Origin: Escherichia phage PSa2
Length of the DNA stretch: 64,000 nucleotides
Sequence record: OL770310
Direction: 5' to 3' (one strand)
Shown: in pieces, positions 5,799 to 36,792 of the stretch
How positions within the stretch are numbered: position 1 is the stretch's first letter
Layout: every line of letters begins with the position of its first letter
The notes under the pieces: model-generated
Told to the model about the DNA's origin: nothing
Database searches by the model: none
The model's input: only the letters and a program-made list of their open reading frames with translations
Made by a program: the position numbers and the translations under genes

Positions 5799-5904
5799 TG
5801 ATTTTCCTCTTTCTCACTATTTCAGGAATATTATAGCAAATCTGGTAGCGATTAGCAAGTAAAATTTCAAAGAAAAAGGAGACCCGAAGATCTCCTTGTT
5901 TTTA

Positions 5905-11582: not shown

Positions 11583-11589
11583 TGAATCA

Positions 11590-11625
11590 GCCAGGTTGCT
11601 AGTCGACCTGGCTTTTATTTTATTT
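11590..11625 (+). terminator. rho-independent terminator after nrdD
   Basis: Stem GCCAGGT/ACCTGGC with 9 nt loop, followed by TTTTATTTTATTT. Confidence 0.7.
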
Positions 11626-11680: not shown

Positions 11681-11962
11681 ATGAGTGAATTGCTTCCTAA
11701 AGTAGATGTTTCCCATCTTGGAGAGCCTAGTGAAGAACGTAAGGCTCTAGATTGGTTGGGCGGATTTGATTATCGTCGTGTTGTTGCAACATGGAATGAT
11801 AAGAAAGTTAAGAAGTTTCGGGTACATTATGTAGGTAAAGACAAGTGGCTCTGGATTGATTATGAAGAATCGAAGGGGTCTACTAAGGCTGTGAAAATTT
11901 ATCGTATGTATGGGTATTATTATGCTCACTGTGATAAGAATGAATTTACAGTACAGAACTAA
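11681..11962 (+). CDS. hypothetical protein
   Basis: 93 aa ORF directly behind a promoter/leader module. Confidence 0.5.
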   Translation: MSELLPKVDVSHLGEPSEERKALDWLGGFDYRRVVATWNDKKVKKFRVHYVGKDKWLWIDYEESKGSTKAVKIYRMYGYYYAHCDKNEFTVQN

Positions 11963-12175: not shown

Positions 12176-12338
12176 TTTAGAAAATATGCTCATGGAGCAG
12201 TGGAATGCTGGGTATAATGCTGGAGTAGCTACCTGTATTGCTGGTTTGGATATGCTTATTAAGCAAGAGAAGGTTCGCCCAGAAGAAGCAATTCTGCTCC
12301 AAAATATCATCGAAGGATTCAAGCAAGGAATCGTATAA
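12144..12338 (+). CDS. hypothetical small protein (ORF track 12060..12338; internal Met with GGAGGAAAA SD preferred)
   Basis: ORF track; SD GGAGGAAAA 7 nt upstream of the ATG at 12144. Confidence 0.35.
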   Translation: MDFLNQNLKSNLENMLMEQWNAGYNAGVATCIAGLDMLIKQEKVRPEEAILLQNIIEGFKQGIV

Positions 12339-13152
12339 TGCGTAGACTAATCGTTGTTAGTGGTGCAGGTTTGAGTGTAGATAGTGGTGTTCGTGCTTTC
12401 CGTACTGATACTGCTAGTGGGAAATCCTTGTGGGATGAGTACGATCTAGAGGAAGTATGTAATATTCATGCCTTTCGTGGTAATTTTACCATAAAACTCA
12501 TATGTTTTACAACAAACGTCGTGAAGAGTTACAAACTGTTGAACCTAACCTAGCTCATTTGCGTATTGGTGAATGGTATAAACGGTATCCAAATCAAGTG
12601 GTAAACCTTACTACCAATGTTGATGATCTAATCGAACGTGCTGGAGTGCCGAGAGAAGATATACTCCATATTCATGGATATCTGAAAGAAATTATTGTAG
12701 AGCATGCGTTCGACCAGACACGTGATGTTATTGATATTGGGTATAGTTCTATTGATCCAGATGACTTTGATTGGGTTAAACCTAACGTTATCTTCTTTGG
12801 TGAGGTTGCTCCTGCCTATAAAACAATGTATGAGGTTTTTGATGGTATCACCAGTCATGATATGATCATCATTGTTGGGTGCTCTAACCAAGTAATTAAC
12901 TTCTACTGGGAGCTATTTCCTGTTCTGAATCTTACTGCTGCAAAACTTATGGTAGTTAACTATTACGATAGTGCAGTAGCTATGGAACCAGGCTATCAGG
13001 GCATGACTCGTAGTGAAATGTATCAGTTAGAAGAACGTGGTATTCCTTACTGGAGTAAAGGTGCTGTGGATGCCTTTAGTGATCCCGATTTTATTGCTCG
13101 TGTGGAAGCTCATCTAGAAGGTAAACCCTATGTTCAACAAAAGCATGTGTGA
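12338..13152 (+). CDS. Sir2-family (sirtuin-like) NAD-dependent protein, reading frame interrupted near 12484..12505
   Basis: Frame-2 ORF 12338..12553 carries VVSGAGLSVDSGVRAFR...SLW (sirtuin NAD-binding signature); frame-1 ORF 12502..13152 carries FYNKRRE..PNLAHL, TTNVDDLIERAG, HIHG, VIFFGE, IIVGCS. Halves overlap in different frames. Confidence 0.6.
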
Positions 13153-13312
13153 TCTTTTAGTGTGGCCGGATGGTAGTTGGTGCTACCGTTTCGAATTTGC
13201 TACCGATGATTTCTCATGGAAGAGTGATGATTTCTGTGTTATCTATGAAGATACAGCAGAATGGAAAGAGTTCCTTATTAAGGAGGGAGAATATGGTGAA
13301 GAAGATTTTTAA
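13130..13312 (+). CDS. hypothetical small acidic protein
   Basis: 60 aa ORF ending EYGEEDF; overlaps the Sir2-like stop. Confidence 0.35.
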   Translation: MFNKSMCDLLVWPDGSWCYRFEFATDDFSWKSDDFCVIYEDTAEWKEFLIKEGEYGEEDF

Positions 13313-13478
13313 GGGTATCTGGAAAGGTCTAGTATGGTTTGTCAACCTAATCGGTATGATTACCATTTATTCTCTGTTCCTATCTGTTATGTGGGGTAAA
13401 GGTGAGCTGAAGGTTCCAGTTCCTTTTACTGATGAAGTTAAAGTCTGGACGTGGGATGCTACTGGTGGAAATAAGTAA
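13293..13478 (+). CDS. small membrane protein (track ORF 13170..13478; SD-supported start 13293)
   Basis: AAGGAGGG SD then ATG; MVKKIFKGIWKGLVWFVNLIGMITIYSLFLSVMW has one clear TM helix. Confidence 0.4.
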   Translation: MVKKIFKGIWKGLVWFVNLIGMITIYSLFLSVMWGKGELKVPVPFTDEVKVWTWDATGGNK

Positions 13479-13971
13479 TACTCCTATAATTTTCCTGGAT
13501 ATTGATGGGGTGCTCAATTCGAGCATCTCTCACCATCATGCTCCAGATAGTGAAAAGCTATTCTTTGGTAGTGATTGGGTTTATAAGCCATTACTCCAGG
13601 CTTTTCAGAACTTCCTTAAACCTTCTCCAATAATGATTGTTGGGGTATCTTCATGGTTTTCTGTACGAAACGAGATGGAGAACGTCCAGATTATGACCGG
13701 ACTCGGTTTGATCGATCGTTTCCTTGGTACAACAGATTTTACTGGAGGTGGTTTATCTCGAGGTAATTCTGTCTTACGTTTCGTAGAAAAACATAAGCTC
13801 AAGCATTGGTGCGTCCTAGATGATGCTGGTGCTATGATGTACCAATTTCCTACTGTTATTGTAAATGGCAGGACTGGAATAAACCTTCAAGATTTAAATA
13901 CTATCAGCTATATGCTGGAATTTAGTCCAGATCTTGAAATGTGTAAGGCTCTTCAGAAACTCAAGGTGTAA
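13432..13971 (+). CDS. HAD-superfamily phosphatase (possible nucleotidase)
   Basis: HAD motif I IIFLDIDGVLN near the N-terminus; alternative start at 13456. Confidence 0.6.
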   Translation: MKLKSGRGMLLVEISNTPIIFLDIDGVLNSSISHHHAPDSEKLFFGSDWVYKPLLQAFQNFLKPSPIMIVGVSSWFSVRNEMENVQIMTGLGLIDRFLGTTDFTGGGLSRGNSVLRFVEKHKLKHWCVLDDAGAMMYQFPTVIVNGRTGINLQDLNTISYMLEFSPDLEMCKALQKLKV

Positions 13972-13973
13972 AT

Positions 13974-14402
13974 ATGTTCGATAATCTTTTCATGAAAGAG
14001 GTAAATCCTATGCTCCTCAACTTCTGGCGTTCTCTCCCTAATGGTATGTATAATGAAACCATCAATCTGCTCAAGATTTGGTGTGAGAATAACGATATCT
14101 TCTTATCCTTTAAAGGCCCACTAGAGGAAGCTCCGTGTATTGGAGTTAGCGTGGATTTAGGGGAGGGAGTAGAAGAGATTGTAGACTGGAAAGAACTCGA
14201 TGAAATGGGTCTGGTTTTTGCCTTGAACCATAAGCTGTTTATGCCTGCAAATCACCGTCTTATTGTAAATTATCGCACTGGTGAAGCTCCTGCTTTCCAG
14301 GTAAATGAACGTGAGGGCTGGTCATATTCGCCCGAGGAAGTAAATGAGGGGATTCAGAAACTTCGTCGTTTCGGGTATATGATCCCAGGTTTAACTGCTT
14401 AA
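13974..14402 (+). CDS. hypothetical acidic protein, paralogue A
   Basis: 142 aa; shares W.ELDEMGLVFALN...TGEAP.FQV...GYMIPGL with the next ORF. Confidence 0.6.
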   Translation: MFDNLFMKEVNPMLLNFWRSLPNGMYNETINLLKIWCENNDIFLSFKGPLEEAPCIGVSVDLGEGVEEIVDWKELDEMGLVFALNHKLFMPANHRLIVNYRTGEAPAFQVNEREGWSYSPEEVNEGIQKLRRFGYMIPGLTA

Positions 14403-14411
14403 GGAGGCAGA

Positions 14412-14807
14412 ATGGAACAAGTATTTTGGCGTCAGATAGATCCTAGTTTGGTAGAGCGTGCTGAGGGGCTCCTTGCACGTTGGTTGGGGGTTGACAAGGT
14501 TAGTGTAACATTTCCGTTTACTTCTGTAACAGACCCTAGTGTAGGTGTCTTTGTGGACGAAGATGAAGATGATGGTTGGGAAGCTGACTGGAATGAATTG
14601 TCCAGCATGGGCTTGATTGTTGCCCTCAACTTCTCTATATTCCACCCACGTGGTTTAGCTATTACACGTGATCCCGAAACCGGTGAATCCCCTTATCTTT
14701 TGCAAGTAGAAGATGATATTTGGGAGTACACCGAAGGTATTCTCGAAGAAGCTAAAGGTCAATTAAATCGTATTGGGATCTATGTCCCGGGCCTAAATGA
14801 TGATTGA
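14412..14807 (+). CDS. hypothetical acidic protein, paralogue B
   Basis: 131 aa, net charge about -19 by hand count; WNELSSMGLIVALN...TGESPYLLQV...GIYVPGL. Confidence 0.6.
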   Translation: MEQVFWRQIDPSLVERAEGLLARWLGVDKVSVTFPFTSVTDPSVGVFVDEDEDDGWEADWNELSSMGLIVALNFSIFHPRGLAITRDPETGESPYLLQVEDDIWEYTEGILEEAKGQLNRIGIYVPGLNDD

Positions 14808-14898
14808 TTTTCATTAGCTCAATCCTGATTACCGAGTCATTTTGGCTCGGTTTTCTCTGTGCTCAAAGACACTGATAGCACCTTCGGAAAAATTTTAC

Positions 14899-36596: not shown

Positions 36597-36611
36597 TTTT
36601 TTTTTTTTTTT
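36597..36611. repeat. T15 homopolymer followed by TGCATTTTGCATTTTGCGTTTT repeat
   Basis: Direct count of 15 consecutive T at 36597..36611. Confidence 0.8.
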
Positions 36612-36792
36612 GAGAGGGTGCAAAACGAACCTCTTGCATTTTGCATTTTGCGTTTTCATATTGTACATAAGAACAGCCTAAGAATCAGTGAACTGTTAAC
36701 ATAGCAGAACACGCGTTGCGTTGCTAGGATAATCAATGTTCAGGCTTGTTTCGCAGCAATATTTTTCAGTGACAGATTGCACTCCACTTATA

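What the first reader, a model, noticed from the sequence alone, without database searches (positions are those of the whole stretch)
12338..13152. Sir2-like NAD-dependent enzyme gene split by a frameshift
The sirtuin signature (GAGLSVDSG..AFR..LW) is in frame 2 (12338..12553) and the remaining motifs (TTNVDDLIERAG, HIHG, VIFFGE, IIVGCS) are in frame 1 (12502..13152). Homology switches frame within about 12484..12505 (AATTTTACCATAAAACTCATATG), next to T4/A4 runs. No zinc-ribbon Cys pairs are visible in the C-terminal half, so this is a divergent Sir2. Possibilities: homopolymer sequencing error, a recent inactivating mutation, or a programmed -1/+2 frameshift. A phage-borne NAD-consuming or deacylating enzyme in an early accessory island could act in host takeover or counter-defence.
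Basis: partly seen in the sequence, partly recalled or inferred. Interest (0 to 1): 0.7.

Follow-up and report, generated by a model that had tools for sequence, protein, structure and literature searches.

The report
Frameshift-split sirtuin gene in T5-like phage
A T5-like phage's sirtuin (NAD-using enzyme) gene is cut in two because one T is missing from a run of five; the reference phage EPS7 already carries the same broken allele, so this is most likely an ordinary inactivating mutation in a dispensable accessory gene.

Summary
ORFs 12338..12553 and 12502..13152 are the two halves of one SIR2-family gene. The only lesion is a T-run of 4 (12484-12487) where relatives have 5. Adding one T gives a 271-aa protein with a full-length Pfam SIR2 match (82.9 bits), a confident CobB/SIRT5-like fold and no zinc-binding cysteines, as in its whole phage clade.

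The window is an Epseptimavirus about 98% identical to phage EPS7. EPS7's record already annotates the same split (AGC_0116/AGC_0117). No other T4 carrier was found: every other relative whose junction could be read (at least 40 phage records, 16 IMG/VR loci, 5 metagenome loci) has T5 and one continuous ORF.

The window's gene is a recombinant. It is identical to bobsandoy-type phages up to 12461 and to EPS7 over 12455-13405, which includes the T4 run. The window assembly is otherwise free of coding homopolymer indels and does not share EPS7's many other indels.

Best reading: a real, recent one-base deletion inherited on an EPS7-like segment, which makes the gene a pseudogene. A programmed frameshift is not supported: no canonical slippery heptamer, no downstream structure, no conservation. 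The gene family and its link to a HAD phosphatase are already described (Iyer et al. 2022). Interest is low.

The parts
12338..13152 (+). Whole sirtuin (SIR2-family) gene, interrupted; the repaired reading is 271 aa
   Evidence: Repaired translation: Pfam SIR2 82.9 bits, profile 1-178/180; PHROG 2162, E 1.8e-115; best solved relative is E. coli CobB, E 8e-19
12338..12553 (+). ORF1: N-terminal fragment, 50 native residues (beta1, GAGLS, FR loop) plus 21 out-of-frame residues, stop TAG at 12551-12553. The start overlaps the upstream ORF's stop (TAATG) and has AAGGA 8 nt upstream
12484..12487 (+). Frameshift site: T4 run where intact relatives have T5 (codons AAT TTT TAC = N49 F50 Y51)
   Evidence: Alignments; T5 in all 16 IMG/VR and 5 metagenome loci
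12502..13152 (+). ORF2: C-terminal fragment from native M56 (FYNKRR, TTNVD, HIHG, FFGE, VGCS motifs). No Shine-Dalgarno-like sequence in the 20 nt before its ATG
   Evidence: the exact 216-aa product is on record only in EPS7
12455..12461 (.). Recombination crossover interval inside the gene, 23-29 nt upstream of the T-run
   Evidence: Window is identical to bobsandoy over 12192-12461 and to EPS7 over 12455-13405
12455..13405 (.). 951-bp block 100% identical to EPS7, carrying the T4 allele
   Evidence: one of at least nine identical runs of 951 bp or more between the two genomes
13432..13971 (+). Conserved neighbour gene: HAD_SAK_2 phosphatase, the proposed functional partner of the sirtuin
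   Evidence: Pfam PF18143, 69.6 bits; same neighbour in EPS7 and in the orthologous position in bombadil, bobsandoy and AKFV33; PMC9503650 section 3.7.3
11589..11613 (+). Terminator-like hairpin after nrdD; likely upstream boundary of the transcription unit holding the sirtuin (consensus match only)
   Evidence: AKFV33 annotates a terminator and a T5-type promoter at the equivalent place
14831..14851 (+). Terminator-like hairpin; likely downstream boundary of the same unit (consensus match only)

Best explanation
This is a sirtuin pseudogene made by a real one-base deletion (T5 to T4 at 12484-12487), most likely replication slippage in the homopolymer. The deletion arose in an EPS7-like Epseptimavirus lineage. 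It reached this phage on an EPS7-like DNA segment that recombined, at 12455-12461, with a bobsandoy-like 5' end. Translation from ATG 12338 ends at TAG 12551 and gives a 71-aa product with only strand beta1 and the NAD-binding loop. The catalytic part (FYNKRR, TTNVD, H113) is in the -1 frame, with no ribosome-binding site of its own. Little or no active enzyme is therefore made (inferred). The intact enzyme in relatives is a zinc-less, CobB/SIRT5-like sirtuin conserved next to a Swiss-army-knife HAD phosphatase. Its proposed but untested role is NAD-dependent clean-up of damaged RNA ends. Losing it appears tolerable, at least on laboratory hosts. Shown: the lesion, its position, family membership, the shared haplotype and the rarity of the allele. 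Inferred: that the deletion is biological and not a sequencing error, that no active protein is made, and the enzyme's function.
For: One-base difference in the T-run against four intact relatives. The repaired ORF is a full-length SIR2 with a confident sirtuin fold (pLDDT 89.5; CobB TM 0.71/0.81). EPS7 has the same T4 and is annotated as two CDS. The window is identical to EPS7 over 12455-13405 but identical to bobsandoy-type phages over 12192-12461, where EPS7 differs at 17 positions. So the allele occurs on two different upstream backgrounds in two independently sequenced genomes. The window assembly is clean: against SB6, the Sir2 T-run is the only isolated homopolymer indel inside a conserved coding region. 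The window does not share EPS7's many other one-base indels, so it is not a copy of that record. Long identical blocks with EPS7 are common (at least nine of 951 bp or more), which fits normal mosaic inheritance. In relatives the gene is under purifying selection (24 synonymous against 5 non-synonymous codon differences to bombadil). It is intact in 21 of 21 extra loci and in all non-EPS7 rows among the 30 closest records. There is no SD before ATG 12502. INF11 shows an independent split of the gene at another position.
Against: No raw reads are available, so an undercalled homopolymer cannot be excluded. The EPS7 record is visibly error-prone, so its T4 is weak evidence on its own. No third carrier was found in IMG/VR, metagenomes or the exact-protein index. 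There are zero substitutions between the window and EPS7 downstream of the shift, so pseudogene decay cannot be shown. Low-level -1 slippage of tRNA-Phe on U_UUU is mechanistically possible and was not measured.
Confidence: 0.7

Rival explanations
1. Sequencing or assembly artefact: the phage really has T5 and an intact gene, and the homopolymer was undercalled (in both this genome and EPS7), or the segment was taken from the EPS7 reference during assembly.
For: The lesion is a one-base change in a homopolymer. EPS7's record contains many isolated one-base indels that split nrdA, a phoH-like gene, ligase B and the tape measure gene. The 951-bp block is identical to EPS7. No third carrier was found.
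Against: Against SB6, the window has no other isolated homopolymer indel in a conserved coding region. It shares none of EPS7's other indels, even inside near-identical blocks such as 22201 and 30440. Identical blocks of this size are the norm for this genome pair. A run of five T is short for systematic undercalling (inference from general knowledge of sequencing platforms). The same rare error would have to occur in two separate projects.
Confidence: 0.2
2. Programmed recoding: a -1 ribosomal frameshift on U_UUU_A (or RNA polymerase slippage on the T-run) produces full-length sirtuin at a regulated level.
For: After decoding UUU (12485-87), tRNA-Phe can re-pair perfectly with UUU at 12484-86, and the -1 frame is open from 12484. 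The gene shows no decay downstream.
Against: There is no X XXY YYZ heptamer, because the A-site codon ACC cannot re-pair in the -1 frame. The downstream 83 nt fold no better than shuffles (-11.7 kcal/mol, z -0.06). Every other relative inspected has T5 and a plain continuous ORF with the same flanking sequence, so nothing here evolved for recoding. From established knowledge of transcriptional slippage, T4 is too short for efficient slippage. The lack of decay is explained by recency, since there are zero differences of any kind from EPS7.
Confidence: 0.04
3. A two-piece enzyme: the 71-aa N-fragment and a 216-aa C-fragment (made by re-initiation at ATG 12502) associate to form an active sirtuin.
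For: Together the fragments lack only native residues 51-55. ATG 12502 lies 50 nt upstream of the ORF1 stop, so termination-reinitiation is conceivable. The break falls at the family's natural insertion point between F50 and Y51, where long alleles carry 30-37 extra residues. That suggests a surface-exposed, tolerant site.
Against: There is no SD before 12502. The N-fragment carries 21 foreign residues. Among the nearly 1,000 phage records that hold a homologue, no family member shows a conserved split arrangement; the only other split seen (INF11) is at a different site. There is no precedent known to me for split sirtuins.
Confidence: 0.03

Closest known systems
Escherichia phage EPS7 AGC_0116 + AGC_0117 (NC_010583 / CP000917)
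   Same: Same T4 allele at the same site. Nucleotide sequence is identical from codon 40 to the stop and beyond (12455-13405). Already annotated as two 'Sir2' CDS.
   Different: The window's codons 28-39 carry 8 substitutions (S30, E34) that match bobsandoy-type alleles, so the window's gene is a recombinant. The rest of the genome is about 2% divergent and lacks EPS7's other indels.
Intact T5-like phage Sir2-like proteins (T5.102 orthologues; bombadil gp065, AKFV33 orf105; PHROG 2162)
   Same: 87-98% amino-acid identity, the same genomic position after nrdD, and the same HAD neighbour.
   Different: They have T5 and one continuous ORF of 271-278 aa.
E. coli CobB / human SIRT5 (class III sirtuins; PDB 1S5P, 6RXM, 3RIY)
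   Same: Same fold (TM 0.7-0.8). Shares GAGxS, the FR loop, the catalytic HG and the class III FYNxRR Tyr/Arg pair, aligned to CobB's FYNARR.
   Different: About 24% identity. No zinc-binding cysteines. Scores far below the NCBIfam CobB cut-offs (98 vs 243 and 86 vs 320 bits). TQNID is changed to TTNVD. Activity is untested.
Phage sirtuin RNA-repair neighbourhoods of Iyer, Burroughs, Anantharaman and Aravind 2022 (PMC9503650, section 3.7.3; type 3 = sirtuin + Swiss-army-knife HAD, typified by Escherichia phage SP15)
   Same: Sirtuin followed by a HAD_SAK_2 gene. A 61%-identical homologue in a Mydovirus sits with T4 RNA ligase 1, cREC, a kinase and a Metallophos gene, which matches their type 2.
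   Different: The KptA/Tpt1-like function is a computational prediction. In this phage the sirtuin member is broken.
Programmed -1 frameshift sites of phages and bacteria (dnaX A AAA AAG; tail chaperone G/GT)
   Same: A -1 shift next to a homopolymer would restore the frame.
   Different: No tandem slippery heptamer, no stimulatory structure, and no conservation among relatives.

Membership tests
SIR2 / sirtuin family (Pfam PF02146) | Profile match above the gathering cut-off over the whole domain | tested here: met
   Repaired protein: 82.9 bits against a cut-off of 24, profile 1-178/180. As encoded, only ORF2 passes (54.5 bits); ORF1 scores 18.5 bits
SIR2 / sirtuin family (Pfam PF02146) | NAD-binding Rossmann motifs (GAGxS, FR cofactor loop, N/D of TQNxD) and catalytic His in HG | tested here: met
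   GAGLS, AFR, TTNVD and HIHG are present, aligned to CobB, and invariant in 38 clade members
SIR2 / sirtuin family (Pfam PF02146) | Sirtuin fold (Rossmann domain plus small domain) | tested here: met
   AlphaFold model of the intact homologue P0001: pLDDT 89.5, pTM 0.87. Best PDB matches are CobB, Af-Sir2 and SIRT5, E down to 6e-17
SIR2 / sirtuin family (Pfam PF02146) | Zinc ribbon with four Cys in the small domain | tested here: not met
   Only C41 and C182 in 271 aa. No Cys between HG (113-114) and KPNV (148-151) in the window's protein or in any aligned clade member; no conserved Cys pairs in the clade. The segment is still predicted as beta strands
SIR2 / sirtuin family (Pfam PF02146) | Uninterrupted coding sequence able to give the enzyme | tested here: not met
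   One-base deletion splits the gene into 71-aa and 216-aa ORFs
SIR2 / sirtuin family (Pfam PF02146) | NAD-dependent deacylase or ADP-ribosyltransferase activity | not testable with these tools
   Needs biochemistry
CobB-type class III protein deacylase (NCBIfam NF040867, NF001753) | Score above the curated equivalog/subfamily cut-off | tested here: not met
   86 vs 320 bits and 98 vs 243 bits
CobB-type class III protein deacylase (NCBIfam NF040867, NF001753) | Tyr/Arg pair (FYxxRR) that binds negatively charged acyl groups | tested here: met
   FYNKRR aligns with CobB FYNARR. F57, Y58, R61 and R62 are invariant in the clade
Anti-phage defence Sir2 NADases (ThsA, DSR1/2, SIR2-HerA and others) | Match to a PADLOC defence-system model | tested here: not met
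   0 families at E <= 0.01
Programmed -1 ribosomal frameshift site | Slippery heptamer X XXY YYZ in the zero frame | tested here: not met
   Zero-frame sequence is T TTT ACC. Only P-site re-pairing is possible
Programmed -1 ribosomal frameshift site | Downstream stimulatory RNA structure | tested here: not met
   12488-12570 folds at -11.7 kcal/mol against a shuffle mean of -11.5, z -0.06
Programmed -1 ribosomal frameshift site | Two-frame arrangement conserved among homologues | tested here: not met
   T5 and a continuous ORF in all 21 extra loci, and in every non-EPS7 row among the 40 junction hits and the 30 closest protein hits listed
Phage sirtuin + Swiss-army-knife HAD RNA-repair neighbourhood (PMC9503650) | Sirtuin of the phage clade in a conserved neighbourhood with a HAD_SAK phosphatase | tested here: met
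   HAD_SAK_2 at 13432-13971, 69.6 bits. Same arrangement in EPS7 and in bombadil, bobsandoy and AKFV33
Phage sirtuin + Swiss-army-knife HAD RNA-repair neighbourhood (PMC9503650) | Tpt1/KptA-like removal of RNA 2'-phosphate using NAD | not testable with these tools
   A prediction in the paper; no experiment is known to me

The most novel reading that the evidence does not exclude
The T4 allele is not neutral damage but is kept or spread because it is useful. One version: losing the sirtuin is adaptive on some hosts, for example by sparing NAD+ or avoiding a host system that senses its product, and the allele moves between Epseptimavirus lineages by recombination, as its presence on two different upstream backgrounds hints. 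Another version: low-level -1 slippage on U_UUU sets a deliberately low dose of the enzyme.
Probability: 0.05. Interest if true: 0.45.

Novelty: already known. Interest (0 to 1): 0.12.

Why it matters
Mostly as a matter of annotation. The two ORFs should be annotated as one frameshifted sirtuin pseudogene, not as two genes, and the same applies to EPS7 AGC_0116/0117. There are two small points of value. First, finding the same allele in a second, cleanly assembled genome suggests that EPS7's split is real and not one of that record's many errors. Second, it indicates that the conserved phage sirtuin is dispensable for propagation, and it gives natural isogenic-like material (T4 against T5 alleles) for testing the proposed sirtuin-HAD RNA-repair function.

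Tried and rejected
- **Other T4 carriers.** The exact junction pattern gave 0 hits in IMG/VR. A pattern that accepts T4 or any fifth base gave 16 IMG/VR and 5 metagenome loci, all T5. The exact 216-aa product is on record only in EPS7 and the 71-aa product is not on record at all. No third carrier was found.
- **Relaxed selection after the frameshift.** The test is uninformative, because the window and EPS7 have zero differences downstream of the site.
- **An indel-prone window assembly.** Rejected. Against SB6, the only isolated homopolymer indel in a conserved coding region is this one.
- **The window copied from, or polished on, the EPS7 record.** Rejected. EPS7's other one-base indels are absent from the window, even inside near-identical blocks, and long identical runs are common between the two genomes.
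- **A frameshift-stimulating RNA structure.** None found.
- **A defence-type Sir2.** No PADLOC hit.
- **Literature.** The EPS7 genome paper is not held. The AKFV33 paper does not mention Sir2 or frameshifts. No experimental paper on a T5-like phage sirtuin was found.
- **Neighbourhood of a phi92/ECO340P2-type homologue.** Uninformative.
- **Sigma-70 promoter scan.** No enrichment, so the promoter of the unit was not located.

Full report
**What is there**

The window carries two overlapping + strand ORFs, 12338..12553 (71 aa) and 12502..13152 (216 aa). Both match Pfam SIR2 on adjoining parts of the profile. ORF1 matches positions 1-37 (18.5 bits) and ORF2 matches positions 48-178 (54.5 bits).

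Alignment with four relatives shows a single cause. The window has TTTT at 12484-12487 where KFSSM, bombadil, AKFV33 and SB6 have TTTTT, in codons AAT TTT TAC (N49 F50 Y51). Adding one T gives a 271-aa ORF with a full-length SIR2 match of 82.9 bits, E 3.5e-23, profile 1-178/180. It also matches PHROG 2162 at E 1.8e-115.

ORF1 therefore holds 50 native residues plus 21 foreign ones, and ORF2 begins at native M56. A -1 shift would be needed to restore the frame.

**What kind of sirtuin it is**

- The closest solved relative by sequence is E. coli CobB (1S5P, E 8e-19), followed by Af-Sir2 and SIRT5.
- An AlphaFold model of the intact 98%-identical homologue P0001 is confident (pLDDT 89.5, pTM 0.87). 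It matches CobB best (TM 0.71/0.81, E 6e-17), then Af-Sir2 and SIRT5.
- The motifs GAGLS, FR, FYNKRR (the class III Tyr/Arg pair, aligned to CobB FYNARR), TTNVD, HIHG, FFGE and VGCS are present. Their key residues are invariant or nearly invariant across 38 clade members.
- The zinc ribbon is missing as a metal site. The protein has only C41 and C182, and the clade has no conserved Cys pair. The corresponding segment is still predicted as beta strands.
- It scores far below the NCBIfam CobB cut-offs and matches no PADLOC defence Sir2 model.

It is therefore a member of a distinct phage sirtuin clade, not a CobB equivalog and not a defence NADase.

**Where the window comes from, and who shares the lesion**

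The window is an Epseptimavirus (T5-like, Demerecviridae). Its best matches are about 97-98% identical: EPS7, ZBSTP12, SB6 and PMBT27. No record is identical to it.

EPS7 (NC_010583 / CP000917) has the same T4 run, and its record already annotates two Sir2 CDS, AGC_0116 and AGC_0117. The evidence for how rare the allele is:

| Source | Result |
|---|---|
| 199 phage records matching the junction (40 listed) | Only the two EPS7 records align without a gap |
| 30 closest protein-level hits | Only EPS7 is in two pieces |
| IMG/VR loci | 16 of 16 have T5 |
| Metagenome loci | 5 of 5 have T5 |
| Those 21 loci together | All encode a continuous 271-278-aa ORF (one is cut by the contig end) |
| Exact 216-aa product | On record only in EPS7 |
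| Exact 71-aa product | Not on record |

**A mosaic gene**

Against EPS7, the window's gene differs only in codons 28-39 (8 substitutions). It is identical from codon 40 to the stop. The identity runs over 12455-13405, 951 bp.

The 5' part, 12200-12461, is 100% identical to more than 100 other Epseptimavirus records such as bobsandoy, bux and S114. These carry a very different, longer Sir2 allele of 283 aa, about 53% identical, with a 30-37-aa insertion exactly between F50 and Y51. The window is identical to bobsandoy over 12192-12461 and diverges sharply after that.

The window's gene is therefore a recombinant, with the crossover at 12455-12461, 23-29 nt upstream of the T-run. The T4 run lies on the EPS7-like side.

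**Real mutation or artefact?**

The EPS7 record is clearly error-prone. It has many isolated one-base indels against both the window and SB6, and these split nrdA, a phoH-like gene, ligase B and the tape measure gene. The window shares none of them, even inside blocks otherwise identical to EPS7 (for example 22201 and 30440).

Against SB6, the only isolated homopolymer indel in a conserved coding region of the window is the Sir2 one. The other isolated indels are intergenic, or sit at a site (11875) where SB6 is the odd one out. Identical runs of 951 bp or more are common between the window and EPS7: at least nine, the longest 1977 bp. The shared block is therefore ordinary mosaic inheritance and not a sign of reference-guided filling.

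Two independent genomes carry the same rare allele on different upstream backgrounds. That favours a real deletion inherited by descent and recombination (confidence 0.7). Without reads, a repeated homopolymer undercall remains possible (0.2).

**Programmed frameshift?**

This is not supported.

- The zero-frame context T TTT ACC allows only P-site re-pairing of tRNA-Phe. It is not a tandem X XXY YYZ slip site.
- The 83 nt downstream fold no better than shuffled sequence (z -0.06).
- The same flanks occur in every relative examined, with T5 and a plain ORF.
- ATG 12502 has no Shine-Dalgarno-like sequence, whereas ATG 12338 has AAGGA 8 nt upstream and overlaps the previous stop as TAATG.
- The absence of decay downstream is explained by recency, since there are no differences of any kind from EPS7.

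**Likely function of the intact enzyme**

In relatives the gene is under purifying selection, with 24 synonymous against 5 non-synonymous codon differences to bombadil.

Its conserved neighbour, 13432..13971, is a HAD_SAK_2 phosphatase (69.6 bits). EPS7, bombadil, bobsandoy and AKFV33 have the same arrangement. Iyer et al. 2022 (PMC9503650, section 3.7.3) describe exactly this sirtuin plus Swiss-army-knife HAD neighbourhood in T5-like phages. They predict a KptA/Tpt1-like, NAD-dependent removal of RNA 2'-phosphates.

I reproduced their second neighbourhood type for a 61%-identical Mydovirus homologue: Metallophos, T4 RNA ligase 1, cREC, AAA_33 kinase and SIR2, with NAPRTase, PRPP synthetase and NADAR nearby. 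The invariant Tyr/Arg pair, which binds carboxylates in SIRT5 and CobB, could equally bind a phosphate. That is my own inference. No experiment on this clade was found.

**Verdict**

This is a frameshifted copy of a known, conserved phage sirtuin gene. The same lesion is already present, and annotated as two CDS, in the reference phage EPS7. It is most likely an ordinary recent inactivating deletion in a dispensable accessory gene. Interest is low (0.12). The novelty class is 'already known'.

Noticed in passing
window 13432-13971: This ORF is a HAD_SAK_2 phosphatase (Pfam 69.6 bits). RefSeq labels its orthologues (EPS7 AGC_0120, bombadil gp062, AKFV33 orf108) 'Sir2 (NAD-dependent deacetylase)', apparently through the label of phrog_18062. 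That annotation looks wrong.
   Followed up: partly
L005 (EPS7 NC_010583 47000-96999) against window 1-49500: The EPS7 record has dozens of isolated one-base indels relative to both the window and SB6. They truncate or split nrdA, a phoH-like gene, DHFR, ligase B and the tape measure gene. The reference genome of the genus looks error-prone.
   Followed up: partly
window 5866-5901: The window lacks the HNH homing-endonuclease segment that lies between nrdB and nrdA in EPS7 (about 530 bp) and SB6 (about 830 bp, two endonuclease ORFs).
   Followed up: no
window 12338-13152; L023 2139-2990: Epseptimaviruses carry two very different Sir2 alleles at the same locus: short (271 aa) and long (283 aa, about 53% identical, more than 100 records). 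They share an identical first 124 nt or so. The difference starts with a 30-37-aa insertion exactly at F50|Y51, the site of the frameshift.
   Followed up: partly
L024 1001-1830 (Salmonella phage INF11, PV692321): An independent frameshift splits a long-type Sir2 gene at a different place (after ERAGI) into two CDS annotated 'NAD+ binding protein'. I did not check whether it is real or an artefact.
   Followed up: no
window 13974-14402 and about 14412-14807: Two adjacent paralogous DUF7415 genes follow the HAD gene. The first was confirmed in the window (125.5 bits). The second is inferred from the EPS7 gene table, where both genes hit PF24187. Function is unknown.
   Followed up: no
window 36597-36640: An intergenic poly-T tract is 4 bases longer than in EPS7 and 6 longer than in SB6. 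The adjacent TTGCATT repeat also varies in copy number between the three genomes.
   Followed up: no
window 11875: SB6 has two extra G in a G-run inside the orthologue of ORF 11681-11962, which shortens its annotated CDS (216 against 282 nt). This is another likely homopolymer problem, but in SB6 and not in the window.
   Followed up: no
L031/L032 (Mydovirus KpS8-type contigs): Here the sirtuin sits in a cluster with Metallophos, T4 RNA ligase 1, cREC, AAA_33 kinase and a DNA ligase. NAPRTase, PRPP synthetase and NADAR genes lie within 6 kb. The locus is rich in NAD-salvage and RNA-repair genes.
   Followed up: partly
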